From assembly GCA_018818425.1 (NCBI GenBank), contig JAHISB010000002.1:2819-66818 (forward strand): a stretch of DNA of 64,000 bases, written 5' to 3'. This DNA comes from Patescibacteria group bacterium (lineage in GTDB: Bacteria > Patescibacteriota > Patescibacteriia > UBA1558 > UBA10009). How positions within the stretch are numbered: position 1 is the stretch's first letter; each line of letters starts with the position of its first letter. Positions 17,448-63,261 of this stretch are shown here, one piece after another. Below the pieces are notes generated by a model. The model saw nothing but the letters and a program-made list of their open reading frames with translations. It did no database searches and was not told the origin of the DNA. Both the position numbers and the translations under genes were made by a program.

Positions 17448-17492
17448 TAAAAAATGCGAAAATCGAAATAACAGAGATATCCACTGAAAACA

Positions 17493-17566
17493 CTGACAGT
17501 TCACGGATAACTCACCGAGGACTCACAGATATCAGTGTAACATCAGCCCGAATCAGTGAACTGTCA
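17493..17566. repeat. 12-bp perfect inverted repeat (ctgacagttcac / gtgaactgtcag) enclosing TCAC(N)GAT words
   Basis: Arms at 17493-17504 and 17555-17566. The interior has tcacggat and tcacagat words. The cagcgtatctcagcg motif follows at 17565-17579. Confidence 0.6.
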
Positions 17567-17596
17567 GCGTATCTCAGCGACCTAGGATTTAATAAA

Positions 17597-19658: not shown

Positions 19659-19788
19659 TGATCACTAACGACGCGAACTAACACGAACCTATCACGAACC
19701 GCTGACTAATTAAAGTAGGTTCGCGGTTCGCGGAGGTCAGCGAATGTTTGTGTCGTCAGTGATAAAGTGATAATTCGTGAAATTCAAT

Positions 19789-25164: not shown

Positions 25165-25290
25165 ATTCCAAGGACCAAAATTAAAAGATCCAAACAATTT
25201 TCAAAATAAAAAATAAAAAGTTTATTATTTCGGTTCTTTTGATTTGTTTGGTTCTTCGGTTCTTTTGATTTGGTTCTTTTCTTGTTATAA
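25165..25290. repeat. intergenic word palindrome (aaaagaaccaaa / ttggttcttttgatttg words)
   Basis: Same word family and architecture as 58155-58245. Confidence 0.5.
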
Positions 25291-25349: not shown

Positions 25350-25973
25350 ATGTTGATAACTTCGACAGAAGAATTAATCACTTCAAACAGCAGAGAGCTG
25401 TTTATTTCGGCGCAGGATACCGCCGGCCAGGCCGGGGATTTTTTCAGCCATTTAGACTGGTCCGCGCCCAGCTGGGATTTATTCATTATTCTGTTTTTTT
25501 TAATAGCTTCGTTAATTTACGGCCTGTCGCTGGGCAGGGACAGAATCGTAATTATCCTAGTTTCTATTTATATGGCGCTGGCCGTGGTGGATTACGCGCC
25601 TTTTGCCGAGAAATTGATTGAAGGAACCTCTTTGGAGGGTTTCTTTTTATTTAGGGTAGTTTCGTTTATAGCGGTGTTTCTGCTGTTATTTTTTATTCTG
25701 GCCCAGTCGGCCCTTTTAAACACCTTTGCTTCCCGCAATGCTTCCCGCAGCTGGTGGCAGACCATTGTTTTCAGCATTCTCCACGTAGGGCTGATTATCA
25801 GCATCACCCTGTCGTTTCTGCCGGAATCGTTTGTTAACGAACTTTCGGATTTTACCTACCGGCTGTTTGCCACGGAAACGGCCAGGTTTGTTTGGATAAT
25901 TCTGCCCATCATTGCCATGGCCTTTATCAGAAAACCCCGCCGCAGACGGCGCGACATTGACGAATATCTTTAA
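25350..25973 (+). CDS. hypothetical membrane protein
   Basis: Track start is TTG 25344; ATG at 25350. ~5 TM. C-terminal KPRRRRRDIDEYL. Confidence 0.45.
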   Translation: MLITSTEELITSNSRELFISAQDTAGQAGDFFSHLDWSAPSWDLFIILFFLIASLIYGLSLGRDRIVIILVSIYMALAVVDYAPFAEKLIEGTSLEGFFLFRVVSFIAVFLLLFFILAQSALLNTFASRNASRSWWQTIVFSILHVGLIISITLSFLPESFVNELSDFTYRLFATETARFVWIILPIIAMAFIRKPRRRRRDIDEYL

Positions 25974-25974
25974 T

Positions 25975-26112
25975 CCGAATATATCACTAATAAATCACGA
26001 ATAATCTCACGAATATGTCACGAATTCACGAATAATCGCGAATAAAAAACTATTAGCGAATTCGTGTGATATTAGAGATGCAGATTAGCGATTTATTAGA
26101 GATATATTCGTG
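25975..26112. repeat. intergenic word palindrome (tcacgaata / tattcgtga words)
   Basis: Forward words in 25980-26040, reverse-complement words in 26050-26112. Confidence 0.5.
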
Positions 26113-27717
26113 TTATTTTATTTTGAACACACTGCTGTCATCAGTTTCAATTTTTTTTTCAAAGAATTCCGGACTCGCTTCCAGGAATTTTTTAAAATCC
26201 TGGTAGATGAAGTAATCGTTAATCCAGATGTATTCAGAATTAAATTGAGTTTTGATGGTTTGGGCGATCATAGCCGGTTGCCGCTGTTCGGCCATACAGC
26301 CCGAGGCCGTTAAATCATCCAAATCAATTAAATCGGCCGGCGCGTTGCAGGCGATTGATTTTTCGGTGATGTTGCGCCAAAGCCAGTAGAGGTTTTTGTC
26401 GTATAAATACATAAAGGTCGGGTCCAGGCCGACAATATAGTAGTTATGGTGATTATGAAAAAATAGTCTGGGGAAAGCATCCCAGGCAGTATGAAAAACT
26501 ATTGATTTTTCAGGGGTGTTGTTTTCAAGCCATTCGGCTGTTTGTTGGTAGCGGCTAATGGGGCAGGCATTTTTATACCCTAAATAGGCTTTTTTTACTG
26601 GTAAAAAGATAAGTGAAAAAAAAGTTAAAATCAATAAAGCTTTGAAAACTGGTTTTCTTATATATTTTTTAAAATCATTTATTAAGTTCTGTTGTTCATA
26701 AGATACCAGTGATTTTTTAAGCAAAGTAAAAGTATGAGCTGTTAAAAGAATTGTAAACGGGACAAAGTATTCTATAAAACGGATTGATTCAATAGTCCAG
26801 AGGCCGTAAAATATTGCTAAAATAAAGAGGGTATAGAGCAATATTTTTTCATTCATAGAGGCAATTTTCTTTTTTAAATAAATAGTTAGGATCCCACATA
26901 TAATTATCATGAAAGAAACTAAAAAAGTATCTTGAAAAAAAGTCAAAGAAGCATGAGCCTGTTCTTGTCCAACAGCCACTCCAGCATTTATTAAATTTAG
27001 ATAAAGAAGATCAAATGTTTGCTGAAAATTAAGAATAACAATATTTGGAAAGTCAGGCCTAATAATCAAAGTTAAAATTAGTGCCAGAAGAGGATAAGTA
27101 TAATATTTTAAATACAGTTTTTTAGTAAACAACCATTCAATAACCGTATAGATAATAATAATGATAAATATTTGTAACCAGCCAGCGTAACTAAGACAAT
27201 AAATTGTTGAAGAAAAAAATAAGAGTCCAAATTTTTTATTATGAACTGCATAAAGAATAATTAGAGTAAGAATAATAGAGATTAAAAAAGGCCGGGAAAT
27301 AAATAGTCGGAAAAAGAATATTGAAGAAGAAAATAATAAGAGGGTCAGCCACAATGTGTGATTTTTTATATCTAGTTTTTTTAAAAAAAATATAAAAAAG
27401 TTTATAAAGAAGAGCAATAATATAAGAACTAAAATTTTTACTGCAATAATTGGGTTTAAAAAAAGAAGCAAAGGATAAAGCAATAAATGGTAACCCAACG
27501 ATAAATCCGCAGGGAACAAGCTCCAGCTGGTATATTGAAACCAAGGAAGCTCGTTAATAACGTTTAAACCGTCCGTATTAAATAATTGAGAAATTTTAAG
27601 ATGATAAAAAATATCAGTGCCAATTATTGTTGGGCGAATAAATAAAATAAAAGTAAATAAAATCAGCAATAATAGATTGTAATAGATAATGGGCTTATTT
27701 TTGATAGCCTTGAACAT
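26113..27717 (-). CDS. GT-C-like integral membrane protein (ArnT/PMT-like putative glycosyltransferase), very AT-rich
   Basis: Track start is TTG 27759; ATG at 27717 gives MFKAIKNK... and sits ~7 nt after a minus-strand TATAAT. 10+ TM with C-terminal soluble domain. GC far below neighbours. Confidence 0.4.
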   Translation of the reverse strand: MFKAIKNKPIIYYNLLLLILFTFILFIRPTIIGTDIFYHLKISQLFNTDGLNVINELPWFQYTSWSLFPADLSLGYHLLLYPLLLFLNPIIAVKILVLILLLFFINFFIFFLKKLDIKNHTLWLTLLLFSSSIFFFRLFISRPFLISIILTLIILYAVHNKKFGLLFFSSTIYCLSYAGWLQIFIIIIIYTVIEWLFTKKLYLKYYTYPLLALILTLIIRPDFPNIVILNFQQTFDLLYLNLINAGVAVGQEQAHASLTFFQDTFLVSFMIIICGILTIYLKKKIASMNEKILLYTLFILAIFYGLWTIESIRFIEYFVPFTILLTAHTFTLLKKSLVSYEQQNLINDFKKYIRKPVFKALLILTFFSLIFLPVKKAYLGYKNACPISRYQQTAEWLENNTPEKSIVFHTAWDAFPRLFFHNHHNYYIVGLDPTFMYLYDKNLYWLWRNITEKSIACNAPADLIDLDDLTASGCMAEQRQPAMIAQTIKTQFNSEYIWINDYFIYQDFKKFLEASPEFFEKKIETDDSSVFKIK

Positions 27718-31433: not shown

Positions 31434-31735
31434 TATCACCGATCTATCACAGATGAATCACCGATCTATCACGGATAAATCACTGATAAATCACCGATCT
31501 ATCACGGATAAATCACTGATAAATCACAGATCTATCACGGATAAATCACCGATAAATCACCGATCTATCACCGATAAATCACGGATGAATCACTGATTGA
31601 TAATATAAAGTATCGGTGATTCATCCGTGGATATCCGTGATAGATCCGTGTATCTCCGTGATTTATCGGTGAGCCATCTGTGCGCTATCTGTCGATAGAC
31701 CCCGAGCTTATCGAGGAGTGAACTATCGGTGATTT
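31434..31735. repeat. ~300 bp imperfect palindrome built from ~25 tandem 10-bp units (ATCAC[C/G/T/A]GAT[C/A]TA)
   Basis: ~16 direct units (31434-31598), AT-rich centre (tgataatataaagta), then ~9 reverse-complement units (31610-31700). Extends into the last codons of dusB. Same TCACNGAT words at 17490-17570 and 21082-21125. Confidence 0.8.
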
Positions 31736-32699: not shown

Positions 32700-32810
32700 G
32701 TTGGGTGATTAGGTTAATTAGGTGATTAGGTGATTAGGTCTTAGGTCTTTAGTCTTCAATCTTTAGTCCTCAGTCATCAATCCTCAATCCTTAGTCTTCA
32801 GTCTTTAAAA
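32700..32810. repeat. degenerate tandem word repeats (ggtgattag; tcaatcc / tcttcag)
   Basis: The tcaatcc word also recurs at 34620-34680, 38200-38260 and 44810-44870. Confidence 0.5.
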
Positions 32811-33329: not shown

Positions 33330-33460
33330 GTTGATTTACAAATTATCACTGATTATCACTGACCACACGAACAGCCACTGACTTGCCACAAACCACTGAC
33401 GAAAAATGTCAGTGGTCAGTGAATGTTCGCGCCGGTTCGCGTCGTTCGCGATTCAGAGGA
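33330..33460. repeat. intergenic word palindrome (atcactga / tcagtg words)
   Basis: attatcactgattatcactgacc...gtcagtggtcagtgaat. Confidence 0.5.
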
Positions 33461-42939: not shown

Positions 42940-43070
42940 GGTAGCCAAAGGGCTATTTTTTTAGTATAATGTTAGATATGGGAACATGTGAACATGGGAA
43001 CATTAGAACACTTGCTCCCATGCTCCCATGTTCTAATGCTTTAATGCTTTAATGCTTTAATGCTTTAATT
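42940..43070. repeat. intergenic word palindrome (gaacatggga / tcccatgttc) plus tandem aatgcttta x4
   Basis: Word family shared with 63030-63135. Confidence 0.55.
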
Positions 43071-44051
43071 ATGAAACACAATATCATCACCATCGGCGGC
43101 TCAACAGAAGACATCATGTTTTATACCAAAGAAGCCGTGTTGGTCAGAAACAACAAGGATATTCTTAGGCAGCAGTTGCTGGGTTTTGAATTTGGCGCCA
43201 AGATCGTCGGCGAGAAAGTTTTTTTTACTTATGGCGGCGGCGGTTCTAATACGGCTGTCAACTTTTCTAAACTGGGCTTAAAAACCGGCGTTATCACAGC
43301 AATCGGCGATGACGACAACGGCCAGAGAATCATCAAAAATTTCAAAAATAATAAGGTTAGCGCTGCTAATATTCAGACAATCAAAAAAGTCCCCAGCGGG
43401 CTTTCTTTTATTGTCAATTTTTCCGGCACCACCGAGCATGTTATTTTCACTTATCGTTCGGCCAATAATCAGTTGCTAATTTCAGAAAAGAGTTTAAGCA
43501 AAGCCAAAGCAGACTGGTTTTACCTTGCTTCGCTGTCAGGGCCAAAGTGGCCGGCTAATCTGAAAAATATTTTTGAGCATTCCGCCAAAAAGAAAATCAA
43601 GATTGGCTGGAACCCCGGCGCTAGCCAGTTAGCCAAGGGCTATTCATCATTAAAAAAATATCTTCAACAAACAGAAGTTTTAATTTTAAATAAGGACGAA
43701 GCCATTGAACTGGTTTTAAGCTCCGGCTATAAAACGCAAAACATCAATCAACTGTTAAAATATTTAAAACTGATGGGCCCGGCAGTTGTTGCCATAACCC
43801 AAGGCGCTAAAGGAGCTGCGGTTTGCTCCGGCAATCAAATCTGTTCGGAAAAAGCTTTACCAATCCAAGGTATTAATACCACGGGCGCCGGCGATGCCTT
43901 TGGTTCCAGCTTGGTTGCCGGTTTGATTATTTATAAAGATTTAGCCAAAGCTCTAAAACTGGCCATCCATCAGAGTAATTATGTTATCCGAGAAATTGGA
44001 GCGCAGAAAGGGCTGCTTTCGATTGCTCAATTAAAAAAGAATGTTGAATAA
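43071..44051 (+). CDS. PfkB-family carbohydrate kinase
   Basis: 326 aa. C-terminal NTTGAGDAFGSSLVAGL motif. Confidence 0.7.
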   Translation: MKHNIITIGGSTEDIMFYTKEAVLVRNNKDILRQQLLGFEFGAKIVGEKVFFTYGGGGSNTAVNFSKLGLKTGVITAIGDDDNGQRIIKNFKNNKVSAANIQTIKKVPSGLSFIVNFSGTTEHVIFTYRSANNQLLISEKSLSKAKADWFYLASLSGPKWPANLKNIFEHSAKKKIKIGWNPGASQLAKGYSSLKKYLQQTEVLILNKDEAIELVLSSGYKTQNINQLLKYLKLMGPAVVAITQGAKGAAVCSGNQICSEKALPIQGINTTGAGDAFGSSLVAGLIIYKDLAKALKLAIHQSNYVIREIGAQKGLLSIAQLKKNVE

Positions 44052-44107
44052 GTCGGATAAGTTTACTTATAATTCATACGACTTATTCAACTTATACAAC
44101 TAAGAAC

Positions 44108-49206: not shown

Positions 49207-49223
49207 TATAATATTATTATTCT

Positions 49224-50039: not shown

Positions 50040-50040
50040 T

Positions 50041-50160
50041 CTTGTATCGCTGTTCGTGTATCGTATATCGTGTATCGTAATCGTGTATCGTGTATCTCTA
50101 TCATCATTATTAAATAATTCAATAATTAACGATACACGATACACGAACAGCGATATACGA
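50041..50160. repeat. intergenic word palindrome (cgtgtatcg / cgatacacg words)
   Basis: Forward words 50041-50100, reverse-complement words 50120-50160. Confidence 0.6.
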
Positions 50161-50202
50161 CTTGCTATTGTTTTATATTTTATAGTCTAGTATAATAATT
50201 TT

Positions 50203-51480: not shown

Positions 51481-51525
51481 TCAATGAACAGTGATCAATA
51501 AACAATAATCAATGAACAATGATTT

Positions 51526-51580
51526 TCTTTGTCATTTCGGGCGGAATGAAATGGAGCCCAAGAAATCTCTTAAAATGCCT
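51526..51580. repeat. TTTGTCATTTCG(G/A)GCGGAATGAAATGGAG element copy
   Basis: Near-identical over ~50 nt to 58627-58678. Confidence 0.7.
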
Positions 51581-51779
51581 GGAAGGGCGTTTTTTCTTGC
51601 TTTAGTTATAATGATTGGTTACAATACAATACATAATAAAAAGTACCAATTAATCGCAAACGACCCAAACATTCGCGAACCAATCACGAACGATTTTATC
51701 AACAATACACGATACCCCTCGACTCGCTACGCTCGATCGGGGCCTGTCGGCACGATATACGATACATGATATACGATTT

Positions 51780-53504
51780 ATGAACAAATACCAATGGAAA
51801 ATTAAAAAGCCGATTGCCGAAGAAATCAGGCAGAAATTTCCTGAAGTAAATCCCATTATTCTTCAGCTGTTAATCGATAGAGGCCTTACCACTCAAGAGC
51901 AGATCGACGAGTTTTTGCATCCGGATTATTCGCAGGATATTCATGATCCTTTTTTATTTTCTCAAATGAAGCAAGCAGTAGACCGCATTTATCAATCAAA
52001 AGAAAATCAGGGAAAGGCGGTAATTTACGGCGACTATGATGCTGACGGAGTTTGCGGGTCGGCTATCTTGGCCAAAGTTTTTAAAGAGATCGGTCTTGAT
52101 TTTGAAGTTTATTTACCCGACAGAGGGCTGGAGGGCTATGGTTTAAATGAGGAGGCCATTAAGGAGCTGGCCAGCCAGAACGTCAAATTGATTATTACCG
52201 TTGACTGCGGCATCAGCAATGTCAAAGAAGTCAGCTTAGCCAACGAGCTGGGCCTAGAGGTGATAATCACCGACCATCACCACGTGGCCGAAGAATTGCC
52301 AAAAGCGCTGGCCATTATTCATCCGGGCTGGGATAAAAACTATCCTTTTAAAAAATTGGCCGGCGGGGGAGTGGCCTTTAAATTAGCCCAAGCCATTTTA
52401 CAAGATCCAAGATTGAATATCAAAGAAACAAATGTTAGTACTTTAGAGAAATGGCTTTTAGATTTGGTGGCCATTAGCACGGTGGCCGATATGGTGCCGC
52501 TGGTTGGCGAGAACCGGACCTTAGTTAAACACGGGCTTATTGTTCTTTCTAAAACCAAAAATCTTGGCCTGCAGAAATTAATAGAGATCACTGGCATCAA
52601 AAAAACAGACACTTATACTATTGGCTGGCAGATTGCGCCCAGAATCAATGCGGCCGGCCGCATGGATCATGCCAACAGCGCTTATCAATTATTAACGACC
52701 GAAAATATAGAAGAGGCCATAACTATTGCCCATGGCTTAAATAAAAGCAATCAGGAGCGCCAGTCGCTTACCGAAAGTTTAATTGAGCAGGCCAAAGAAC
52801 AGGTCGGCGAAGCCAAAGATGATTTACCAATAATTTTTGCCCAGGGCAAGGGCTGGCCGCCCGGGGTAATTGGCTTGGTTTCTTCTAAATTAACTAATAT
52901 TTATGCCAGGCCTTCAATTGTCCTGTCGGAAAAAGATGATCATTTGGTGGCTTCGGGCAGAAGCATTGGTGAATTTAATTTAATCGAAGCTCTGGACCGG
53001 TTTAAAGATTATTTTGAAAAGTATGGCGGCCACAGCGGCGCCGCCGGGTTTTCTATTAAAATTGAAAGATACGAGGATTTTAAGGCTAAGTTTACTGATT
53101 ATGCCAAAGAAAAATTAACAGGCGTTAAATTTATTCCCAAGCTGATTATTGATTTAGAAATATCATTAAAAGAAATCGACTGGCCGTTGATTGAATCATT
53201 GAACCAGTTTGAACCGTTTGGACAAAGCAATTACTGCCCCCGTTTTTTAATCAGAAATGTAAAAGTTATGTCCCGTGACAGCGTGGGCCATGATAATAAG
53301 CATTTGCGTCTGATAGTTGGCCAGGAGAATCTTCAGCGCAAGGTTATCTGCTTTAGCTTTGGCGATTACTGCCAAAAAATTGAACCGGAAGATATAATCG
53401 ATATTGTCTGCGAAGCCAGCGTTAACGAGTGGAACGGGACTAGGGAGATACAGCTTTCGTTGGTAGATTTGAAAATATCTAATGAACGCCAAGGCCTTGC
53501 CTAA
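51780..53504 (+). CDS. recJ: single-stranded-DNA-specific exonuclease RecJ
   Basis: 574 aa. DHH motifs (YGDYDADGVCG, ITDHHH), DHHA1 domain (GGHSGAAG), C-terminal OB fold. Confidence 0.85.
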   Translation: MNKYQWKIKKPIAEEIRQKFPEVNPIILQLLIDRGLTTQEQIDEFLHPDYSQDIHDPFLFSQMKQAVDRIYQSKENQGKAVIYGDYDADGVCGSAILAKVFKEIGLDFEVYLPDRGLEGYGLNEEAIKELASQNVKLIITVDCGISNVKEVSLANELGLEVIITDHHHVAEELPKALAIIHPGWDKNYPFKKLAGGGVAFKLAQAILQDPRLNIKETNVSTLEKWLLDLVAISTVADMVPLVGENRTLVKHGLIVLSKTKNLGLQKLIEITGIKKTDTYTIGWQIAPRINAAGRMDHANSAYQLLTTENIEEAITIAHGLNKSNQERQSLTESLIEQAKEQVGEAKDDLPIIFAQGKGWPPGVIGLVSSKLTNIYARPSIVLSEKDDHLVASGRSIGEFNLIEALDRFKDYFEKYGGHSGAAGFSIKIERYEDFKAKFTDYAKEKLTGVKFIPKLIIDLEISLKEIDWPLIESLNQFEPFGQSNYCPRFLIRNVKVMSRDSVGHDNKHLRLIVGQENLQRKVICFSFGDYCQKIEPEDIIDIVCEASVNEWNGTREIQLSLVDLKISNERQGLA

Positions 53505-53634
53505 TATGTCATTGCGAGGAGTGTGATCCCTCACTCCGTTCAGGACAGGCTCCACAATCCCATTGAGTTACGAACTTTCGTTCAACAAGGAGATTGCTTC
53601 GCTCGTGCCTCGCTCGCAATGACAGCAAGGCCAA
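53490..53634. repeat. TGTCATTGCGAG-family compound hairpin overlapping the recJ stop
   Basis: aaggccttgcctaatatgtcattgcgagg pairs with cctcgctcgcaatgacagcaaggcc. Interior related to the 49067 and 58605 copies. Confidence 0.7.
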
Positions 53635-53656
53635 TCAGACTTTATTCAATAAATTC

Positions 53657-54064
53657 ATGAAACAGCAAAAACTTAAAATATATTCCGATGGCGGGGCCAG
53701 GGGCAATCCCGGACCGGCGGCCTGCGGCGTGGTTATTAAAGATGCTAAAAGTCAGACCATCAGCAAACATTCAAAATATCTTGGTGAAACCACCAATAAT
53801 CAGGCAGAATATGCCGGAGTCTTGTTAGGTTTACAAGAAGCTAAAAAATTAGGCGCTCAAGAAGCCCATTTTTATTTAGACAGCGAACTGGTTGTTAATC
53901 AACTTTCGCAGAATTATAAAGTCAAAAATTTAGACATTCAAACGGCTTTTGTTAAAATTTGGAATTTGAGCGTTGGTTTTGCCAAAGTCAAATATCACCA
54001 TATTCCCAGAGAAGAGAATAAAGAAGCCGATCGGCTGGTTAATCAGGAACTTGATAGGAATTGA
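53657..54064 (+). CDS. rnhA: ribonuclease HI
   Basis: Track start is TTG 53594, inside the repeat; ATG 53657 gives MKQQKLKIYSDGGARGNPGPAA... DEDD catalytic residues and C-terminal NKEADRL. Confidence 0.8.
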   Translation: MKQQKLKIYSDGGARGNPGPAACGVVIKDAKSQTISKHSKYLGETTNNQAEYAGVLLGLQEAKKLGAQEAHFYLDSELVVNQLSQNYKVKNLDIQTAFVKIWNLSVGFAKVKYHHIPREENKEADRLVNQELDRN

Positions 54065-54077
54065 TCTTTGATCTAAG

Positions 54078-54176
54078 ACCGAAGACTTCGGCCATGAGCC
54101 ATAGGCCATCATCCTTTGGCTGAAAGGCCGACCAGCCTCCGTTCGGCCTGAGCTCACGGCCGAAGGCTGGCTGGGA
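54078..54176. repeat. GC-rich tandem-hairpin element, copy D (inverted relative to copy B)
   Basis: 54130-54175 is the exact reverse complement of 35529-35574. The flanks share the ggctggtcggcct core. Confidence 0.85.
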
Positions 54177-54241
54177 AAACTGAAGACTAATAAGATTCAT
54201 AATTGACGAAAAGCTTTGTAAACTGTTATAATAAATTCACT

Positions 54242-55174
54242 ATGGAAGAAAATTGGGGCATGATTGGACATCAAAAAATAGTCCAGTTTTTAGATAAAAG
54301 CATTAAAGTTAATCGTTTAGCCCACGCTTATTTGTTTTACGGCCAGGGTTCGCTGGGCAAAACCACGCTGGCCGAAAAATTTGCCGAAACCCTTTTAAAA
54401 ACACCCGAGGCGGTAGTTACCGATCTTTATAAAGTAGGGCCCCTGGAGGGCAAAAAGAATATTGCCATAGAGCAAGTCAGGGAATGGCGCCTTAAGCTGC
54501 AGATGAAGTCCTTGCATCAGGGTTATAAAGTGGGCATAATTTACGAAGCGGAAAAGCTGAATTTGGAATCAGCCAACGCCCTGCTCAAAACCATCGAGGA
54601 GCCCACGCCGCAGACCGTAATCATTTTAATTACCTCTGCCTGGGATAAAATTCTGCCGACCATTATCTCCCGGAGCCAGCTTATAAGGTTTTCACCGGTC
54701 ATCAACCAAGAAATTATTAACTGTCTTTCGGTTAGAGAATTTCCGGCTGCTGAAATTGAAAAGATGGTTAATTTTGTTGGCGGTTATCCAGGGAAAATTA
54801 TCGCTTATTTGGAAAGTCCGGAACTTTTTACAGAATTTCAGAAATTAAATAAAGAGGTTATTAAAATTTTTAACAGCAATTTGGCTGAAAGGTTTTTAAC
54901 CATAGATAAATTTCTTTCTTCGGCCAAAGAGTTTAATAAAAAAGTTATTTTGACCTATGAATTTTTAAAGCATTTCAGAATTATTTTCAGGGATATGCTT
55001 TTGAAGAATTATAATTTGCCTAATCTTTTGCAGAATAAATCCTTAAAAATAGAGAAAAATTATTCTGTCAACGAGCTTTTAACCATCGGCCTTAAAATGG
55101 AAGAAGCCGAAAACCAGCTTAAAAGCAATGTCCAGCCCCGGCTGATTTTAGAAAATTTAATGTTACATATATGA
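54242..55174 (+). CDS. holB: DNA polymerase III subunit delta' (HolB)
   Basis: Track start is TTG 54203; ATG 54242 (10 nt after TATAAT 54226-54231) gives MEENWGMIGHQKIV...AHAYLFYGQGSLGKTTLA. Confidence 0.7.
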   Translation: MEENWGMIGHQKIVQFLDKSIKVNRLAHAYLFYGQGSLGKTTLAEKFAETLLKTPEAVVTDLYKVGPLEGKKNIAIEQVREWRLKLQMKSLHQGYKVGIIYEAEKLNLESANALLKTIEEPTPQTVIILITSAWDKILPTIISRSQLIRFSPVINQEIINCLSVREFPAAEIEKMVNFVGGYPGKIIAYLESPELFTEFQKLNKEVIKIFNSNLAERFLTIDKFLSSAKEFNKKVILTYEFLKHFRIIFRDMLLKNYNLPNLLQNKSLKIEKNYSVNELLTIGLKMEEAENQLKSNVQPRLILENLMLHI

Positions 55175-56241
55175 AATCACCAATTAAATTAATTATCAGT
55201 TTATTATTTATCACCTTGGTTTTAAGCGGCTGTCTTATTAATGTAAAAACCACGGGCGGCGGTTTCAGCGACGGGGGCGTGTTTGTTTCCGGTAATAGCG
55301 GCGATGACTGGCAGCAGATTTCTTTAATTTACCGGGTCAGCGATGTGGAGAAAACTTTCAGCAATGTTGATTTAACGGCCATGGTTATGGATCCTTTGGA
55401 TAATAAGGCAATTTACATAGCCACTCACGATCAGGGCTTATTTTACACTTACGATGCCGGCGCGGGCTGGCATCAAACTTTGCAGGATAAGGGCAGAATC
55501 AACGCCCTGGCCATCAGCCCCAGCGAATCCTGCATTATCTACGCCGCTATTTCCAACAGAGTTTATAAATCCGTTGATTGCAACAGGCACTGGGATTATA
55601 AGCTGATAGAATCCCGGGCCGATCCTGACAATCAAATTACCTCTTTAGCCATTGATAATTACAATACCAATGTTATTTACGCCGGCACTTCCGGCAAAGG
55701 TTTATTTAGAAGCGATGACGGCGGCTACTCCTGGCACGTGGTTAAATTTTTTAATGACCGGGTGGACAAAGTTTTAATCCTGCCCGCTAACAATCAGGTA
55801 ATCTATGTCGTCACAGCTTCCCAGGGCATATTTAAAACCGCCGATCAGGGAGAAAGCTGGCTGGAAGTTTTTGATGAAGCCATGAAGAAAGAGTATGGCA
55901 ATTTATTAACTTATCGGGATTTAATTTTAGATCCCACGGTAGAAGACGGCCTTTTTTACGCCTGTAATTATGGCTTGTTCAGGTCGGCTGACGGCGGAGC
56001 TGCCTGGAAGAATATCGATTTATTAACCCCGCCTAACACAGCTGTTATTTATTCTTTGGCTATCAATCCTCAAAATGGCCAGGAGATTTATTATGGCATC
56101 GACACTTTGTTATATCGTTCCGAAGACGGCGGAGCCAACTGGATTACCAGGACTTTGCCCACCTCCAGAGCGGCCAAGTATTTAATCGCCGATCCCCGGC
56201 AGTCTGCCAGGGTATATTTAGGAGTAAAGAAGATTAAGTGA
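55171..56241 (+). CDS. BNR/Asp-box repeat beta-propeller lipoprotein (Ycf48-like)
   Basis: Lipoprotein signal (LSGC). Repeated S-x-D-x-G-x-x-W motifs (SDDGGYSW, TADQGESW, SADGGAAW, SEDGGANW). Confidence 0.6.
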   Translation: MKSPIKLIISLLFITLVLSGCLINVKTTGGGFSDGGVFVSGNSGDDWQQISLIYRVSDVEKTFSNVDLTAMVMDPLDNKAIYIATHDQGLFYTYDAGAGWHQTLQDKGRINALAISPSESCIIYAAISNRVYKSVDCNRHWDYKLIESRADPDNQITSLAIDNYNTNVIYAGTSGKGLFRSDDGGYSWHVVKFFNDRVDKVLILPANNQVIYVVTASQGIFKTADQGESWLEVFDEAMKKEYGNLLTYRDLILDPTVEDGLFYACNYGLFRSADGGAAWKNIDLLTPPNTAVIYSLAINPQNGQEIYYGIDTLLYRSEDGGANWITRTLPTSRAAKYLIADPRQSARVYLGVKKIK

Positions 56242-56251
56242 GTTGCTAGGC

Positions 56252-56390
56252 TGAATAAGTTTGATAAGTCATATAAGTTTAATGAGTTTAATAAGTTGAG
56301 TAAGTTCGATAAACTACGGAAGTAAACTTATTCAACTTATTCAACATATTCAACTTATTCAACGTATTCAACTTATTCAACATTTTAAAT
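56252..56390. repeat. intergenic palindrome of ~14 nine-bp units (gaataagtt ... aacttattc)
   Basis: Seven forward units, centre acggaagta, seven reverse-complement units. Confidence 0.75.
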
Positions 56391-56403
56391 TAACAACAAA
56401 CAT

Positions 56404-56958
56404 ATGGGTGAATTTATTAACAGCCACAAACCAGACCTGACCAAGGTTATCGAGCATTTTAAAAAAGAAACAGCGGCCTTAAGAGTAGGCCGGGCCGCTC
56501 CTTCTCTAATAGAAAATATCAAGGCCGAGTCTTACGGCGTGCTAACGCCCATTATCCATTTGGCCAGCATTACGGTTCAGGATCCTAAAAATATGGTAGT
56601 CCAGCCCTGGGATAAAAATAATTTAAAACCCATTGAAAAAGTTTTGCAGTCAGCCGAGCTGGGGGCCAGTATTTCGGTTGATGGCGGCGTCATCAGGATA
56701 GCTATTTCATCAATGACCGAGGAGGCCAGAAAAGAAGTGACTAAAAAATTACATCAAAAAACAGAAGAGGCGCGGGTCAGCATCAGGGGCAAAAGAGAAA
56801 AGATTAAAGAAGAGGTGATAAATCAGGAAAAAAATAAAGAGATTTCCGAGGACGATAAATTTAAATTTTTAGAAGAGCTTGATAATCTGGTTAAAGATTA
56901 TAACGAAGAAATCAAGGAACTGGCCGCTAAAAAAGAGCAAGAAATAATGACAATTTAA
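56404..56958 (+). CDS. frr: ribosome recycling factor
   Basis: 184 aa. Typical Frr three-helix bundle and beta domain (VDGGVIRIAI). Confidence 0.85.
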   Translation: MGEFINSHKPDLTKVIEHFKKETAALRVGRAAPSLIENIKAESYGVLTPIIHLASITVQDPKNMVVQPWDKNNLKPIEKVLQSAELGASISVDGGVIRIAISSMTEEARKEVTKKLHQKTEEARVSIRGKREKIKEEVINQEKNKEISEDDKFKFLEELDNLVKDYNEEIKELAAKKEQEIMTI

Positions 56959-57037
56959 CAAGACGTATGATGTATGACGTGAGTCGTCTGACATCTTTCG
57001 TTATTCGTCATACGTTTTTCAGATAAATACTATAATT

Positions 57038-58153
57038 ATGATTACCATATTAACCTTCATCATTGTTTTAGGCATTTTAATCCTAGCCCACGAGTTTGGG
57101 CATTTTATTACGGCTAAAAAATCAGGCGTTAAGGTAGAAGAGTTTGGCATTGGTTTTCCACCCAGATTGTGGGGCAGAAAAGGCAAAGACGGCGTTTTTT
57201 ACTCTATTAACTGGATACCTTTTGGCGGCTTCGTTAAGTTAAAAGGCGAAGGCGGCGAACATCAAGAAGATCAGGACAGCTTTGCCAATAGACCGGCCCG
57301 TACAAGGGCTTTAATTCTTTCGGCGGGCGTTTTAATGAACGTGGTTTTGGCTTTTGTCCTTTTTTCCGTTGGCTTTATGCTGGGTTTGCCCGCTACCATT
57401 GGCGAGGAGCAAATCAACGATCCGGCCGTTAAAAATGTCAAGGTGCAAATTGCTTCGGTGGTTATGGATTCGCCCGCTTATGCCTCGGGCTTAATAGTCG
57501 GCGACCAGCTTTTGGCTATCGATAATCAGGAAATGCGGCTGGTCAGCCAGTTTCAGAGTTATATCAGCGAGCATCAAGACAGCCAGTTAACTCTGCAAAT
57601 TGCCAGAAGCAAGGAAAATCAAGAAATCAAAGTTGTCCCGCAAATAATTGAGGGCTTTGCGGAGGAAAAGGTGATGGGAGTGACTCTGATTCAAACTGGC
57701 ATTGTCAGGCATAATTTTTTTGCCAGCTGGTATTATGGCTTGAAAACAACCGTCAGTATTTTAGCGATGATAGTGTTGGCTTTTTACAATCTGCTTAAAA
57801 ATCTTGTTCTTGGCTTGGGCGTTTCTATAGACCTTAGGGGCCCGGTGGGCGTGGCTATTATGACGGGCCAGGTGGTTTCTTTGGGCTGGATTTATGTTCT
57901 GCAGTTTACCGCTATTTTATCTTTGAATTTGGCAGTAATCAATTTTTTTCCTTTCCCGGCTTTAGACGGCGGCAGATTTTTATTCTTAATCATTGAAAAA
58001 ATCCGGCGCCGGCCCAATAATCAAAAAGTAGAGAATTTAATCCATAACATCGGCTTTACTATTTTAATAATTTTAGTGTTAGTGGTTACTTATCGCGATA
58101 TTGCGTATTACGGAGCCGGCTTTATAGAAAAAATTAAGGGAATGTTCGGGTAA
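57038..58153 (+). CDS. rseP: RIP metalloprotease RseP (site-2 protease)
   Basis: HEFGHFITAK (HExxH), PDZ domain, NLAVINFFPFPALDGGR (LDG motif). ATG directly after TATAAT 57032-57037. Confidence 0.85.
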   Translation: MITILTFIIVLGILILAHEFGHFITAKKSGVKVEEFGIGFPPRLWGRKGKDGVFYSINWIPFGGFVKLKGEGGEHQEDQDSFANRPARTRALILSAGVLMNVVLAFVLFSVGFMLGLPATIGEEQINDPAVKNVKVQIASVVMDSPAYASGLIVGDQLLAIDNQEMRLVSQFQSYISEHQDSQLTLQIARSKENQEIKVVPQIIEGFAEEKVMGVTLIQTGIVRHNFFASWYYGLKTTVSILAMIVLAFYNLLKNLVLGLGVSIDLRGPVGVAIMTGQVVSLGWIYVLQFTAILSLNLAVINFFPFPALDGGRFLFLIIEKIRRRPNNQKVENLIHNIGFTILIILVLVVTYRDIAYYGAGFIEKIKGMFG

Positions 58154-58154
58154 A

Positions 58155-58245
58155 ATAATCAAATTAAAAGAACCAAGAACCAAACAAGAACCAAAATTAA
58201 AAAATAAAAAACTTTTTTATTTCGGTCCTTTTGATTTGTTTGCCT
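58155..58245. repeat. intergenic word palindrome (aagaaccaa / ggtccttttgatttg), sibling of 25165-25290
   Basis: Shared words and order. Confidence 0.5.
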
Positions 58246-58304
58246 GTCCCGAGGAAAGTCGAGGGGGTTCTTAAGCGCTTCGGCTCTTATTCATTTTAAA
58301 AATT

Positions 58305-58604
58305 ATGAAATTCAACATACAAAAAACCCAACTTCAAAAAAACCTCCGAGATGCCCTTCGTCGCGCAGGATACTTCAGTATCAGCGATAGAAAATCCGGA
58401 CAGTTAAGTTATGTCAAACGTCTCTCTAAAACCCAGCATTATCCCAGGTTTCATTTATATTTTACCGAAGATCAGGATTCATACACATTCAACCTTCATT
58501 TAGACCAGAAAAAACCCAGCTATGCCGGCCAACATGCCCACAGCGGCGAATATGATGAGCCATTGGTTAAAGAGGAGGCGGAAAGGATTCAATCAATAAT
58601 ATAA
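58305..58604 (+). CDS. hypothetical protein
   Basis: 99 aa basic/His-rich. No family recognised. Confidence 0.35.
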   Translation: MKFNIQKTQLQKNLRDALRRAGYFSISDRKSGQLSYVKRLSKTQHYPRFHLYFTEDQDSYTFNLHLDQKKPSYAGQHAHSGEYDEPLVKEEAERIQSII

Positions 58605-58626
58605 AAATCCATTGAGAGTTCATTAC

Positions 58627-58678
58627 TCTTTGTCATTTCGAGCGGAATGAAATGGAGTCGAGAAATCCCTTAAGAAAG
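58627..58678. repeat. TTTGTCATTTCGAGCGGAATGAAATGGAG element upstream of the GIY-YIG gene
   Basis: Matches 51526-51580. Preceded by atccattgagagttcattac, related to 53557-53576. Confidence 0.7.
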
Positions 58679-58686
58679 GCGATTAT

Positions 58687-58989
58687 ATGGTAAAAAGAGA
58701 ATATAACTTTTATGTTTATATCATGGCCAGCGCATCAGGCACATTATATGTGGGCATGACTAATGATTTAGAACGTCGGGTAGATGAGCATAAACGAGGA
58801 TTAATTGAATGCTTTACTAAAAAGTATTCATGTCATAAATTAGTCTATTATGAACATTTTACGGATGTTTATGAAGCTATTGAAAGAGAAAAACAGATAA
58901 AAAGATGGCGCAGAGAAAAAAAACAGAACCTTATCAGAACTATTAACCCTATCTGGAAAGATTTAGGTTTAGAATCAGAATGGGAATAA
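58687..58989 (+). CDS. GIY-YIG nuclease family protein (small, standalone)
   Basis: 100 aa. YNFYVYIMASASGTLYVGMTNDLERRVDEHKRG... (GIY...YVG motif, Arg, Glu). Confidence 0.75.
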   Translation: MVKREYNFYVYIMASASGTLYVGMTNDLERRVDEHKRGLIECFTKKYSCHKLVYYEHFTDVYEAIEREKQIKRWRREKKQNLIRTINPIWKDLGLESEWE

Positions 58990-59023
58990 TCATTTTTCTT
59001 TTTATTTCATTATCCTTTGTCAT

Positions 59024-59136
59024 TTCGACTGGAGCGGAGCGGAACGGAGAAATCCCTTGATTAGAAGAAGTAAGGGATCTCTCCGCTCACCTTCATTCAC
59101 TTCGCTCATTACGGTTCGGTCGAGATGACAAAGAGG
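59024..59136. repeat. TGTCATTTCGAC-family nested hairpin downstream of the GIY-YIG gene
   Basis: cctttgtcatttcgac / gtcgagatgacaaagagg outer stem. ggagaaatccctt / aagggatctctcc inner stem. Confidence 0.7.
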
Positions 59137-59302
59137 GTCAAAATAACAGCGATTATCAAAACACAATGAAATTAATAAAAAACAGCCACTAAAAGATGGC
59201 TGTCTCACTCTATATCGCTATAGAGCGCTGAAATTTTTCAATTAAATTATAAGCAAATGGTTTTTAACTTGTAACTAATTTATCAACATATCCAATTCCA
59301 TT

Positions 59303-59578
59303 ATGAATAAGGATGTAAAATGTAGTCAATGTAGAAATTTAAAGGATGTTAATAATCCCAGATTTAATAATGTACAGGAAATATCTATACAACGTCAAAT
59401 AAAAAAATTTCGTTGTGAAGCTGATATACCAAATTATTTTTCATGTGTAGAAGTTAAAAAGATACGAAATTGTGATAAATTTAGACCAAGGACTTTATCA
59501 TTTTGGCAGGAATTATTAAATAAATTATTAATTCTTCCAAAATGGATAGCAAATTACTTTTTAAATAAAATAAAATAA
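59303..59578 (+). CDS. hypothetical small Cys-containing protein
   Basis: 91 aa, AT-rich, weak. Confidence 0.3.
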   Translation: MNKDVKCSQCRNLKDVNNPRFNNVQEISIQRQIKKFRCEADIPNYFSCVEVKKIRNCDKFRPRTLSFWQELLNKLLILPKWIANYFLNKIK

Positions 59579-59582
59579 CAAT

Positions 59583-60824: not shown

Positions 60825-60829
60825 GAAAT

Positions 60830-60965
60830 CCTAAGCGCCAAATCCCATCCCCGAATAAATCGGGGACTAAATAAATCCAAAATCCAAAATTATAATATAA
60901 TTTAATGTTTTGAATTTTGATATTAGAATTTTGATATTATTTAGGATTTGGAATTTAATAGTATT
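60830..60965. repeat. intergenic region with ccccgaataaatcgggg mini-hairpin and aatccaaaat / attttgatatt word palindrome
   Basis: Immediately upstream of mreB. Confidence 0.5.
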
Positions 60966-60966
60966 T

Positions 60967-62007: not shown

Positions 62008-62010
62008 CCA

Positions 62011-62811: not shown

Positions 62812-62840
62812 TTATTATTCAAGCTATACCCCTTCGCTTT

Positions 62841-63006: not shown

Positions 63007-63189
63007 TAACTCCGAAGCGGCGGAGCTTAGTATGAGAACATGGGAGCATGAGAACATGGGAGCACTAGAACATGGGAGCATTAGAACATTGGAGCACTTG
63101 CTCTTATGCTCCCATGTTCCAATGTTCTCATGCTAAACTTCGGGGCATTATACGGAATTATTTAAGCAATTGAGTATAAATTAAAATGA

Positions 63190-63261
63190 ATCCCGCACCA
63201 CAGGAAACCACTGGCGTAAGTCCATAATCAAGTTGTGCTGGGTAAGCCTGTGGTGCGGGAT
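63190..63261. other. 15-bp perfect inverted repeat (ATCCCGCACCACAGG / CCTGTGGTGCGGGAT) overlapping the mreD start codon
   Basis: Arms at 63190-63204 and 63247-63261, 42-nt loop. The ATG of mreD (63260) lies in the 3' arm. Confidence 0.7.

What the first reader, a model, noticed from the sequence alone, without database searches (positions are those of the whole stretch)
56252..56390. Intergenic spacers are built as word palindromes, each with its own 8-11 nt word (a genome-scale architecture)
Beyond the arrays above, almost every spacer longer than 100 bp here is a low-complexity imperfect palindrome made of a locus-specific oligonucleotide. One example is gaataagtt x7 / aacttattc x7 at 56252-56390. 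Others are cgtgtatcg/cgatacacg at 50041-50160, tcacgaata at 25975-26112, atcactga at 33330-33460, gaacatggga at 42940-43030 and 63030-63135, aaaagaaccaa at 25165-25290 and 58155-58245, and tcaatcc at four sites. Different words with the same architecture argue for a generative mechanism. Candidates are replication slippage plus hairpin-templated strand switching, or selection for long AT-rich stem-loops as bidirectional terminators. A classical mobile element seems less likely.
Basis: seen in the sequence. Interest (0 to 1): 0.5.

Follow-up and report, generated by a model that had tools for sequence, protein, structure and literature searches.

The report
Foldback-like hairpin repeats filling CPR spacers
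The spaces between genes in this tiny uncultured (CPR/Patescibacteria) bacterium are packed with long DNA hairpins whose two arms are runs of a short repeated word; these are real, belong to dispersed, rapidly turning-over repeat families that resemble miniature "foldback" mobile elements, and they do not look like ordinary transcription terminators.

Summary
The example is real. At 56252-56306 / 56325-56379 there are 55-nt arms, 80% complementary, made of ~9-nt words; fold z is about -7. The pattern is far beyond chance: 17/41 spacers have z<-3 versus 0/60 coding segments, and tandem arrays cover 18.5% of spacer DNA versus 0.7% of coding DNA.

About 11 of 30 spacers >=100 nt are word palindromes, not almost all. 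The words are not locus-specific: 23 spacer-spacer homologies define dispersed families whose copies share loops and unique segments but differ in word copy number.

The host is a Patescibacteria MAG. Its nearest relatives keep synteny but have 19-94-nt spacers without palindromes. More distant CPR genomes have their own sets (31 strict hits in 1.1 Mb versus 0.7 in shuffles).

In one close genome pair (~93% coding identity), orthologous spacers carry different-word palindromes, and one family sits at non-orthologous sites.

The hairpins are strand-symmetric and lack U-tracts. They span stop to start, including inside the hrcA-grpE operon, so they are not efficient terminators.

Best reading: MITE/REPIN/foldback-like dispersed hairpin elements with minisatellite arms. 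The mobilising enzyme is unknown.

The parts
56252..56312 (.). Focal element, left arm: about 6.4 degenerate copies of GAATAAGTT-type words. It starts 10 nt after the TGA stop of the BNR/sortilin-like gene (55171-56241).
   Evidence: gene
56313..56324 (.). Focal element, loop / non-repeated centre
56325..56389 (.). Focal element, right arm: AACTTATTC x6.3 at 91% matches, with an 18-nt higher-order alternation. It ends 15-24 nt before the frr start (56404).
44043..44091 (.). Short member of the focal family (gataagttt ... acttattcaacttata), with a 16-nt stem at 94% that overlaps the upstream stop codon. It looks like a 'seed-size' version of the focal element.
   Evidence: 75% over 52 nt to 56285-56336, opposite strand
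50040..50160 (.). Word palindrome cgtgtatcg / cgatacacg. The outer arms 50040-50071 / 50129-50160 are 91% complementary and include a mirrored unique segment. The left arm carries extra unmirrored words (50072-50096).
25971..26115 (.). Word palindrome (tcacgaata) that exactly fills a convergent spacer, from one stop codon to the other
31434..31692 (.). Largest element: 11-nt word ATCACNGATNN x14.8 (33-nt higher-order unit x5), followed by about 8 inverted words. It lies downstream of dus (31734-32696, - strand).
19659..19776 (.). Palindrome filling the hrcA-grpE spacer from stop to start (z -5.2). It is a paralogue, in inverse orientation, of 33330-33460.
33330..33460. Paralogue of 19659-19776, with 81% mean column identity over the 159-column alignment of the two ~150-nt stretches. 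It lies in a convergent spacer, next to a canonical terminator at about 33295-33325.
25165..25290 (.). Palindrome aagaaccaa / ttggttctt downstream of dnaJ; paralogue of 58155-58245
58155..58245 (.). Paralogue of 25165-25290 (85% over 68 nt, including the loop), with fewer right-arm words
42978..43069 (.). Palindrome gaacatggga / tcccatgttc plus a direct array TAATGCTT x4.5; paralogue of 63021-63142
63021..63142 (.). Palindrome with 44-nt arms at 80%. The left arm is a 16-nt unit x4. This array holds all 4 differences between the two assemblies.
17460..17590 (.). Palindrome built from the TCACNGA / CACTGA vocabulary, between two macB-like genes
32704..32808 (.). Direct-only array in a divergent spacer whose word gradually changes (GGTGATTA -> GTCTTCA -> ATCCTCA). 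It has no inverted partner (z +0.3). It shares the AATCCTC vocabulary with 38220-38257, 44815-44879 and 34620-34690.

Best explanation
The 'word palindromes' are members of several families of small (about 50-260 nt), non-coding, dispersed hairpin elements. Their two arms are minisatellite-like arrays of a 7-11-nt word and of its reverse complement. This is a prokaryotic miniature of the foldback-transposon / MITE / REPIN design.

Two processes shape them.
(i) Copying of whole elements between spacers. The mechanism and enzyme are unknown: transposition, structure-specific recombination or ectopic conversion.
(ii) Fast local slippage. This expands, contracts and homogenises the words independently in each arm. 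A short seed hairpin therefore grows into a long imperfect palindrome whose arms pair in many registers.

The elements persist where they do little harm: directly after stop codons in co-directional and convergent spacers. They are transcribed through rather than terminating transcription. They are gained, lost and replaced much faster than coding sequence diverges. They are therefore best seen as lineage-specific genomic passengers, possibly with incidental effects on mRNA, and not as conserved regulatory signals.

Shown: the structure, its statistical excess, the dispersed families, the word copy-number changes, the replacement at orthologous spacers, the strand symmetry, the lack of terminator features, and the patchy phylogenetic distribution.

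Inferred: mobility as the means of dispersal, slippage as the expansion mechanism, and near-neutrality.
For: Structure and excess.

Dispersed families:
- 23 spacer-spacer homologies (E<1e-4) among 46 spacers, against 1 spacer-coding hit.
- Copies are homologous through loops and unique parts but differ in word number.

Dispersal between loci:
- The L066 5987-6135 and L077 10060-10223 elements share a 48-nt arm at 100% and a right arm at ~90%.
- They sit at non-orthologous spacers of genomes that are ~93% identical in coding DNA.

Turnover:
- About 9 of about 11 orthologous L066/L077 spacers longer than 40 nt are unalignable.
- At least 4 pairs carry palindromes with unrelated words.
- Gap events run at 22/kb in aligned spacer versus 2.6/kb in coding.
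- The nearest relatives of the window genome (RRF 65-78% identical) keep the synteny but have 19-94-nt spacers without palindromes.

Slippage:
- Higher-order periods.
- A one-word indel between L066 and L077.
- Assembly variants confined to one array.
- Unequal arm lengths and unmirrored variants.

DNA-level symmetry:
- The sense fold is better in only 14/29 cases, and G.U pairs number 86 versus 89.
- G.U versus A.C mismatches are 16 versus 13.

Not terminators.

Distribution:
- 31 strict hits in 1.1 Mb versus 0.67 in local shuffles, clustered in a subset of CPR loci.
- Strict hits assigned to spacers: 16 co-directional, 3 convergent, 0 divergent, against a background of 214/38/50 (P about 0.03 for zero divergent).

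These genomes do host active non-autonomous elements: the ccccgttagaaa-TIR MITEs show filled and empty sites with target-site duplications (TSDs).

The architecture matches published descriptions of foldback elements, which have TIRs built of variable tandem repeats (PMC4079207, PMC3573991), and of REPINs, which are hairpin-forming inverted doublets that are mobile and extragenic (PMC3116915).
Against: - No target-site duplication, no clean empty/filled site and no excision junction was found for any word palindrome.
- No candidate transposase (Y1/HUH, DDE) is present among the window's ORFs. Mobility is therefore inferred only from distribution.
- The non-orthologous-site evidence rests on one genome pair from one metagenome.
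- Low-complexity AT-rich words inflate similarity scores, so some 'families', especially the AATCCTC and AAATTCC classes, could be convergent.
- In L066/L077 the replaced segments share the same boundaries (stop codon to start codon) and similar lengths. This is also what in-situ hyper-evolution under a constraint on architecture would produce.
- That an orthologous spacer keeps a hairpin of similar size in both genomes hints at selection for the fold, which the 'passenger' view does not predict.
Confidence: 0.55

Rival explanations
1. Purely local origin. Each spacer invents its palindrome in place. Slippage expands a word, and intrastrand (hairpin-templated) template switching copies it into the other arm. 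Similar words at different loci arise by convergence or occasional ectopic conversion. No element ever moves.
For: - Slippage signatures are abundant.
- Direct-only arrays with gradually changing words exist without any palindrome (32704-32808).
- No TSDs or empty sites were found.
- Replaced orthologous spacers have identical boundaries at the stop and start codons.
- Arrays are often in phase with the stop codon, or resemble the gene's last codons.
Against: - Paralogues share non-repetitive loops and unique segments, e.g. the GC-rich core of L066 7140/12531. The alignment of 19659rc with 33330 has 81% mean column identity. Convergence does not explain this.
- A 48-nt arm is 100% identical at non-orthologous sites of two genomes, above their coding identity.
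- Arm variants are mostly not mirrored, so there is no sign of ongoing arm-to-arm templating.
Confidence: 0.17
2. Selected RNA-level elements. The long AT-rich stem-loops would act as terminators or insulators between gene units, or as intercistronic mRNA stabilisers or processing sites (REP-like, RNase III substrates).
For: - They are located after stop codons.
- None occurs in divergent spacers, and both convergent spacers of the window carry one.
- Architecture and approximate length persist at orthologous spacers while the sequence is replaced.
- Many genes appear to have their own -10 box close to the start codon, which could create a need for insulation.
- REP elements are known to stabilise upstream mRNA (established knowledge).
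Against: - No U-tract and no GC-rich stem.
- Canonical terminators co-exist in the same spacers.
- One palindrome lies inside the CIRCE-controlled hrcA-grpE-dnaK operon.
- Stems often end <=15 nt from the next start codon, so read-through is required.
- There is no sense-strand advantage and no G.U bias.
- They are absent from the orthologous spacers of the nearest relatives, which are 19-94 nt long.
- The distribution is all-or-none per genome rather than per gene.
Confidence: 0.18
3. Protein-binding site arrays (iteron- or centromere-like, or nucleoid-organising). The words would be operator half-sites phased about one helical turn apart; for example ATCACNGAT is itself a small palindrome repeated every 11 bp.
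For: - The 11-nt period of ATCACNGATNN x14.8 at 31434-31597, with an inverted set following it, resembles plasmid parC-type iteron sets (the resemblance is from general knowledge).
- The ATCACTGA vocabulary is confined to spacers: 9 copies versus 0 in coding.
Against: - Periods are mostly 7-9 nt, out of helical phase.
- There are dozens of unrelated words per genome and different words in close relatives, which would require as many binding proteins.
- No par/rep genes are adjacent.
Confidence: 0.05

Closest known systems
Foldback (FB-like) transposons of eukaryotes (Drosophila FB, Galileo, Tetris)
   Same: The arms are terminal inverted repeats that are internally built of tandem sub-repeats. 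The number of sub-repeats differs between the two arms and between copies. Most copies are non-autonomous. The whole element can snap back into a hairpin. Structure changes rapidly (PMC4079207, PMC3573991; compare).
   Different: These elements are 10-100 times smaller (about 50-260 nt, against TIRs of up to ~1.7 kb, the Tetris figure in PMC4079207). Sub-repeats are 7-11 nt rather than tens to hundreds. The host is bacterial (CPR). No TSD (8-10 bp in Tetris) and no transposase were identified. They sit exactly between the stop and start codons of housekeeping genes.
REPINs / REP-BIME elements (REP doublets forming hairpins, mobilised by RAYT transposases)
   Same: They are extragenic, imperfectly palindromic elements of about 100 nt, present in several families per genome. 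They are dispersed in spacers downstream of genes, evolve within genomes, and are predicted to fold in ssDNA or mRNA (PMC3116915).
   Different: There is no conserved 20-40-bp REP unit. The arms are arrays of 7-11-nt words. No RAYT gene is present in the window. GTAG/CGTC tags (PMC3733652) appear in only one word family (about 65.66-65.75 kb of the contig; L060). REPINs have not been reported from CPR in the searched library.
Bacterial MITEs (e.g. Correia, RUP, Nezha), including the ccccgttagaaa-TIR MITEs seen here in L077
   Same: They are small, non-coding, TIR-bearing, multi-copy and intergenic, able to form long hairpins, and variable between close relatives in presence or absence.
   Different: Classical MITEs have unique internal sequence, defined termini and TSDs (seen for the L077 MITEs). 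The word palindromes show none of these so far, and their arms are tandem arrays with fluid length.
Pervasive locus-specific tandem repeats of Borg extrachromosomal elements
   Same: Many independent, recently formed, rapidly evolving short-unit tandem arrays with different units at different loci, in intergenic regions (PMC9879509, abstract seen).
   Different: As I recall (this goes beyond what one search showed), Borg repeats are near-perfect direct arrays that also lie within genes; they are archaeal-associated. The arrays here are paired with inverted partners, are imperfect, are confined to spacers, and belong to dispersed families.
Intrinsic (Rho-independent) terminators
   Same: Hairpins downstream of stop codons, depleted from divergent spacers.
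   Different: Terminators have short GC-rich stems, small loops and a U-tract. Here the stems are 20-60 bp and AT-rich with large loops and no consistent U-tract. They are strand-symmetric and sit inside operons.

Membership tests
Intrinsic terminator | Short GC-rich stem (about 5-14 bp) with a 3-8-nt loop | tested here: not met
   Stems are 20-55 nt and AT-rich (focal spacer GC 0.26), with loops of 10-100 nt. None of the word palindromes in 44001-64000 is called by the terminator scan.
Intrinsic terminator | U-tract immediately 3' of the stem on the transcribed strand | tested here: not met
   The 12 nt after the stems show no consistent T-run. Sense and antisense strands are equivalent.
REP / REPIN | A conserved 20-40-bp REP sequence present in many copies, arranged as inverted doublets | tested here: not met
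   No unit is shared across the word palindromes. Each family has its own 7-11-nt words. The inverted-doublet geometry is met only in the loose sense that the arms are inverted.
REP / REPIN | A cognate RAYT (Y1 transposase) gene in the genome, flanked by REPs | tested here: inconclusive
   No Y1_Tnp/HUH hit among about 60 window ORFs scanned against Pfam. Only 67 kb of the genome was available.
REP / REPIN | A GTAG or CGTC tetranucleotide tag at one end (PMC3733652) | tested here: inconclusive
   GTAG/CTAC-rich words occur only in the elements at about 65657-65750 of the contig, around 20293-20334 / 20716-20754, and in L060. They are not in the focal family.
MITE | Terminal inverted repeats | tested here: met
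   The arms are inverted repeats by construction.
MITE | Multiple dispersed copies within a genome | tested here: met
   >=2 copies per family within 64 kb for at least 5 families. Two copies in L066. The same family sits at non-orthologous sites in L066 and L077.
MITE | Target-site duplications and filled/empty site polymorphism | tested here: inconclusive
   No TSD is recognisable at the paralogue boundaries, and there is no empty site in L066/L077, only replacement. By contrast, the ccccgttagaaa MITEs in L077 do show TSDs (TATG, TTGAC) and empty sites.
MITE | A related autonomous element sharing the TIRs | not testable with these tools
   This needs the complete genome or metagenome bin.
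Foldback transposon | TIRs composed of tandem sub-repeats, with variable copy number between arms and copies | tested here: met
   definition from PMC4079207 and PMC3573991.
Foldback transposon | Eukaryotic DNA transposon (Mutator/P superfamily transposase; 7-10-bp TSD) | tested here: not met
   The host is bacterial. No TSD and no transposase were found. The resemblance is therefore architectural only.
Integron attC site | A structured recombination site at the 3' end of mobile gene cassettes, with RYYYAAC...GTTRRRY core sites and an IntI integrase nearby | tested here: not met
   The flanking genes are housekeeping genes in conserved synteny (holB, frr, rseP, proS, mreB, hrcA-grpE-dnaK). No integrase is present in the window. 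Core-site-like 7-mers occur in the focal words, but in the wrong orientation and not in other families (read directly from the sequence).

The most novel reading that the evidence does not exclude
The hairpins may not be mere passengers but a structure-defined class, in one of two ways.

(a) A hairpin-recognising (attC- or REPIN-like, sequence-independent) recombination or transposition system could swap 'hairpin cassettes' specifically at the stop-codon side of genes in CPR bacteria.

(b) A palindromic insert could be the only kind tolerated, or even favoured, between co-transcribed genes in these Shine-Dalgarno-poor genomes. Folding brings the upstream stop codon and the downstream start codon together at the stem base, which would preserve termination-reinitiation coupling across a 100-200-nt spacer.

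Either reading would explain three observations: the architecture and length persist while the words are replaced; the stems run from about 4 nt after the stop to about 11 nt before the start; and direct-only arrays occur where no such constraint exists.
Probability: 0.12. Interest if true: 0.8.

Novelty: new variant of a known kind. Interest (0 to 1): 0.52.

Why it matters
CPR/Patescibacteria genomes are regarded as extremely streamlined. Yet here about one fifth of spacer DNA is fast-evolving tandem array, and a third of the longer spacers are foldback-like hairpins that are replaced between genomes only ~7% apart in coding sequence.

If confirmed genome-wide, this would have three consequences:
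- It would add a new structural class of miniature dispersed DNA to bacteria, one with tandem-array arms.
- It would provide very fast strain-typing markers for uncultured lineages.
- It would flag a systematic cause of contig breaks and mis-assembly in CPR MAGs. L013 ends inside a different (GC-rich) spacer repeat, and assembly variants are confined to one word array.

It also raises a testable question: how are genes that lack Shine-Dalgarno sites, and that are separated by 100-200-nt hairpins, transcribed and translated?

Tried and rejected
- Rfam (gathering threshold) on the whole window found only tRNA-Gln. An E-value search on the 3-copy upstream element returned noise only.
Only 3 kb beyond the window was obtained.
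- The strain-level comparison with L013 gave no polymorphism; the sequence is identical.
- The consensus promoter/terminator scan was too noisy to map units: 41 terminator-like sites versus 21 expected, mostly inside genes. One call failed on the length limit.
- Only one close genome pair (L066/L077) exists among 92 loci, so the turnover result has a single genome-pair replicate.
- Literature searches for CPR intergenic palindromes, MITEs or REPINs, or for 'inverted tandem repeats' in bacteria, found nothing relevant.
- Considered and rejected: CRISPR (no unique spacers, imperfect short words); assembly or MDA chimera artefact (independent assemblies agree, arms imperfect and unequal); integron attC (housekeeping genes in fixed synteny); oriC/DnaA-box cluster at 31.2-31.7 kb (no dnaA, and the GC-skew dip merely tracks a 6.6-kb minus-strand gene block).
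- My first shuffle control for shared 9-mers was poorly matched: it used a mononucleotide shuffle with no low-complexity filter. I rely on BLAST instead.

Full report
**1. What is at the coordinates.**

The spacer 56242-56403 lies between a BNR/sortilin-like gene (55171-56241) and frr (56404-56958).
- TRF reports ATAAGTTTG x6.4 (72% matches) at 56255-56312 and AACTTATTC x6.3 (91%) at 56325-56381.
- The arms 56252-56306 / 56325-56379 are 55 nt and 80% complementary, with an 18-nt loop. They pair nearly as well when shifted by one or two words (74-77%).
- The spacer folds at -43.4 kcal/mol (z -7.3) on the + strand and -45.4 (z -6.4) on the - strand.
- The right arm is homogeneous with an 18-nt alternation. 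The left arm is degenerate, and its variants are not the mirror image of those on the right.
- The arms are therefore related at the level of the word, not as a recent exact inverted duplication (read directly from the sequence).

**2. Is it more than chance, and how general is it?**

- Across 41 spacers the mean fold z is -2.96, with 17 below -3. Sixty length-matched coding segments give -0.20, with none below -3.
- 23 of the 25 longest inverted repeats lie in spacers.
- Tandem arrays (period >=5, >=2.5 copies) cover 18.5% of spacer nucleotides versus 0.70% of coding nucleotides. Periods peak at 7, 8 and 11 nt.
- The generalisation is too strong. About 11 of 30 spacers >=100 nt are AT-rich word palindromes and about 7 hold GC-rich unique hairpins. 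Several, including the tcaatcc sites, are direct-only arrays that do not fold.
- The sequence is the same in an independent assembly (L013, identical over 4.9 kb). An ENA assembly of the same contig differs at only 4 positions in 17.6 kb, all inside the 63032-63096 array.

**3. The words are not locus-specific.**

- ATCACTGA occurs 9 times in 6 spacers and never in 55.7 kb of coding sequence. TCAATCCT occurs in 5 spacers.
- An all-against-all BLASTN of 46 spacers gives 23 homologous pairs (E<1e-4), against one spacer-coding hit.
- The pairs are homologous through loops and non-repeated parts. The alignment of 19659-19776 (reverse) with 33330-33460 has 81% mean column identity. 25165-25290 versus 58155-58245 is 85% over 68 nt by BLASTN (alignment). 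42978-43033 versus 63068-63134 is 82% over 67 nt (alignment).
- The focal element has a seed-sized relative at 44043-44091.
- Copies differ mainly in the number of words per arm.

**4. Organism and relatives.**

- The window is from a Patescibacteria (CPR) MAG; its RRF is 100% identical to an NCBI 'Patescibacteria group bacterium' protein.
- The nearest relatives found (RRF 78, 66 and 65% identical) keep the order holB-BNR-frr-rseP-x-proS-mreB-mreC. Their orthologous spacers are 19-94 nt, AT-rich and without palindromes. The focal spacer is 43, 94 and 28 nt in those genomes.
- The elements are therefore lineage-specific additions to an ancestrally compact gene array.

**5. Distribution across about 1.1 Mb of frr neighbourhoods**.

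- A strict detector was used: a 7-mer present >=3x direct, plus its reverse complement >=2x, within 220 nt. It finds 31 loci versus 0.67 in locally shuffled sequence.
- The hits are concentrated in a subset of contigs: the window, L003 Buchananbacteria, L004 Magasanikbacteria, L006, L023, L032, L035, L037, L060, L066, L076 and L077. Twelve of the 31 were not assigned to a spacer; by inspection about 7 of these still lie in spacers and a few are false positives in coding sequence.
- Each genome has its own words. A few low-complexity word classes recur, e.g. GGTTGTAGG and AAATTCCAAATC.
- Hits assigned to spacers are 16 co-directional, 3 convergent and 0 divergent, against 214/38/50 spacers >=100 nt.

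**6. Direct view of turnover.**

L066 and L077 come from the same metagenome and are 92.7% identical over 12.6 kb. BLAST blocks nevertheless end at nearly every spacer.
- Orthologous spacers each contain a word palindrome of similar length but with unrelated words: aaattttaaat versus caaaaa/tttttg; tgaaacc/ggtttca versus atgac/gtcat; tgaaacc versus tacgaat/attcgta. The replaced segments run from the stop codon to the start codon.
- L066 has two ~81%-identical copies of the tgaaacc element (mean column identity; the GC-rich central core is near-identical), differing in word number.
- The L066 spacer-1 element reappears in a different spacer of L077, with a 48-nt arm at 100% identity.
- The one alignable palindromic spacer differs by an 8-nt one-word deletion.
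Turnover happens by replacement with members of dispersed families plus slippage.

**7. What they are not.**

- The hairpins lack GC-rich stems and U-tracts.
- Canonical terminators exist separately in the same genome, sometimes in the same spacer.
- The 118-nt palindrome between hrcA and grpE lies downstream of the only CIRCE operator and promoter in the window (18920-18946). grpE-dnaK expression most likely requires read-through. This is an inference from the standard hrcA-grpE-dnaK operon organisation.
- Across 29 elements the stems start a median 4 nt after the stop codon and end a median 11 nt before the next start. That leaves no room for a promoter in about half the cases. RNAfold can extend stems into AT-rich flanks by a few nt, so these distances are approximate.
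- Sense and antisense strands fold equally well: the sense strand is better in 14/29, and G.U pairs number 86 versus 89. Mismatches in gapless stems are 16 G.U versus 13 A.C.
- The palindromy is thus a DNA-level property, with no footprint of selection on the transcript.

**8. Most likely mechanism (confidence about 0.55).**

These are families of small, non-coding, foldback-like hairpin elements that spread between spacers. Their arms behave as minisatellites, so that a short seed hairpin (such as 44043-44091) grows into a long multi-register palindrome (such as 56252-56389).

They survive after stop codons, where disruption is least costly. They are transcribed through, and they are gained, lost and replaced quickly.

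Rivals:
- Purely in-place generation by slippage plus template switching (0.17).
- Selected RNA elements such as insulators or stabilisers (0.18).
- Protein-binding arrays (0.05).

The persistence of a hairpin of similar size at orthologous spacers in L066/L077, together with the tight stop-to-start geometry, is not explained by a pure passenger model. This keeps open a more novel reading: structure-specific cassette exchange, or preservation of stop-start juxtaposition for translational coupling in a genome where only 8/61 genes have an SD-like motif.

**9. Comparison with known systems.**

- Architecturally the closest are eukaryotic foldback transposons, whose TIRs are made of variable tandem sub-repeats (PMC4079207, PMC3573991).
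- Ecologically and by size the closest are REPINs/REP-BIMEs (PMC3116915) and bacterial MITEs.
- Membership in any of these families fails or is untested on defining features: no REP unit, no RAYT, no TSD, no autonomous partner.
- Nothing comparable for CPR was found in the searchable literature.
- I therefore class it as a new variant of a known kind, of moderate interest.

Noticed in passing
window, all gene starts (e.g. 11505-11518, 34705-34719, 49205-49223, 50190-50202, 57028-57037, 60890-60909): Only 8 of 61 genes have an SD-like motif. In contrast, 24 of 61 have a -10-like box (often a perfect TATAAT) ending within 20 nt of the start codon. This suggests widespread leaderless or very short-leader mRNAs. 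Relatives L009 and L011 show the same TATAAT-before-ATG pattern.
   Followed up: partly
window 39706-39836, 62841-63006; source contig about 66773-66902 (- strand; L012 20370-20499): There are three copies of a 130-166-nt element, always directly upstream of a gene and in the gene's orientation. It ends in a conserved AAAATCGGAATTATTAAAGCGAAGGAG (SD-like) box. It has no Rfam match (best E = 0.4). It may be a shared promoter / 5'-UTR cassette or an unknown leader RNA.
   Followed up: partly
window 35521-35579, 54125-54183, 34573-34678, 39609-39650, 11303-11342: A second, GC-rich hairpin repeat family (ccagcctccgttcggcctgagctcacggccgaaggctgg), 95% identical between two copies. It is REP-like and distinct from the AT-rich word palindromes.
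   Followed up: no
window 51526-51573, 58627-58673, 59006-59058; ORF 58687-58989: The repeat 'tgtcatttcgagcggaatgaaatggag..gaaatccctt' flanks a stand-alone 100-aa GIY-YIG nuclease gene on both sides and also occurs 7 kb away. The L013 contig breaks inside one copy. It may be a small nuclease-associated mobile unit.
   Followed up: no
window 63049, 63050, 63065, 63081: The only 4 differences between the window and the ENA assembly of the same contig over 17.6 kb lie in the GAACATGGGAGC array. They look like a one-unit register shift of variant words. This is either array heterogeneity in the population or assembly ambiguity.
   Followed up: partly
L077 1453-1676, 3377-3626, 13980-14217 (empty sites in L066 at about 2383, about 4720, about 15107): Bona fide MITEs of 224-250 nt with ccccgttagaaa / tttctaacgggg termini and target-site duplications (TATG, duplicating a start codon; TTGAC). 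They are present in L077 and absent from the ~93%-identical L066.
   Followed up: partly
window 20293-20334, 20335-20715, 20716-20754: A '23S rRNA intervening-sequence protein' (bAvd-like) gene is inserted inside the hrcA-grpE-dnaK operon. It is flanked by GTAG-rich and CTAC-rich inverted segments that resemble the GGTTGTAGG/CCTACAACC words of L060 and of the contig at about 65.7 kb.
   Followed up: no
window 18889-18946: A textbook heat-shock control region upstream of hrcA: TTGACG-17-TATACT promoter followed by a perfect CIRCE (TTAGCACTC-N9-GAGTGC). It is the only CIRCE in the window.
   Followed up: yes
window 60-599 and 596-2470 (-): An MvaI/BcnI-family restriction endonuclease gene lies convergent with a 624-aa ORF that fuses a LexA DNA-binding domain, an S24 peptidase and an N6/N4 DNA methyltransferase. 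This is an unusual LexA-methylase fusion in an apparent R-M module.
   Followed up: no
window 32704-32808: In a divergent spacer, a direct-only array changes word by word (GGTGATTA -> GGTCTTA -> GTCTTCA -> ATCCTCA). It is a visible record of stepwise duplication plus mutation, with no inverted partner.
   Followed up: partly
L060 3538-3650; source contig about 65657-65750; L032 1688-1811 versus window 35325-35380 and 44782-44823: Some words recur in distant genomes (GGTTGTAGG/CCTACAACC; AAATTCCAAATC-type A/C-rich words), and the stop codon is often in phase with the first word. This may be convergence in low-complexity sequence or shared ancestry of some families.
   Followed up: partly
window 35602-38142: A VirD4/TraG-like type IV coupling protein homologue (846 aa) is flanked by spacers rich in several repeat families. 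It is possibly part of an integrated conjugative or DNA-uptake module.
   Followed up: no
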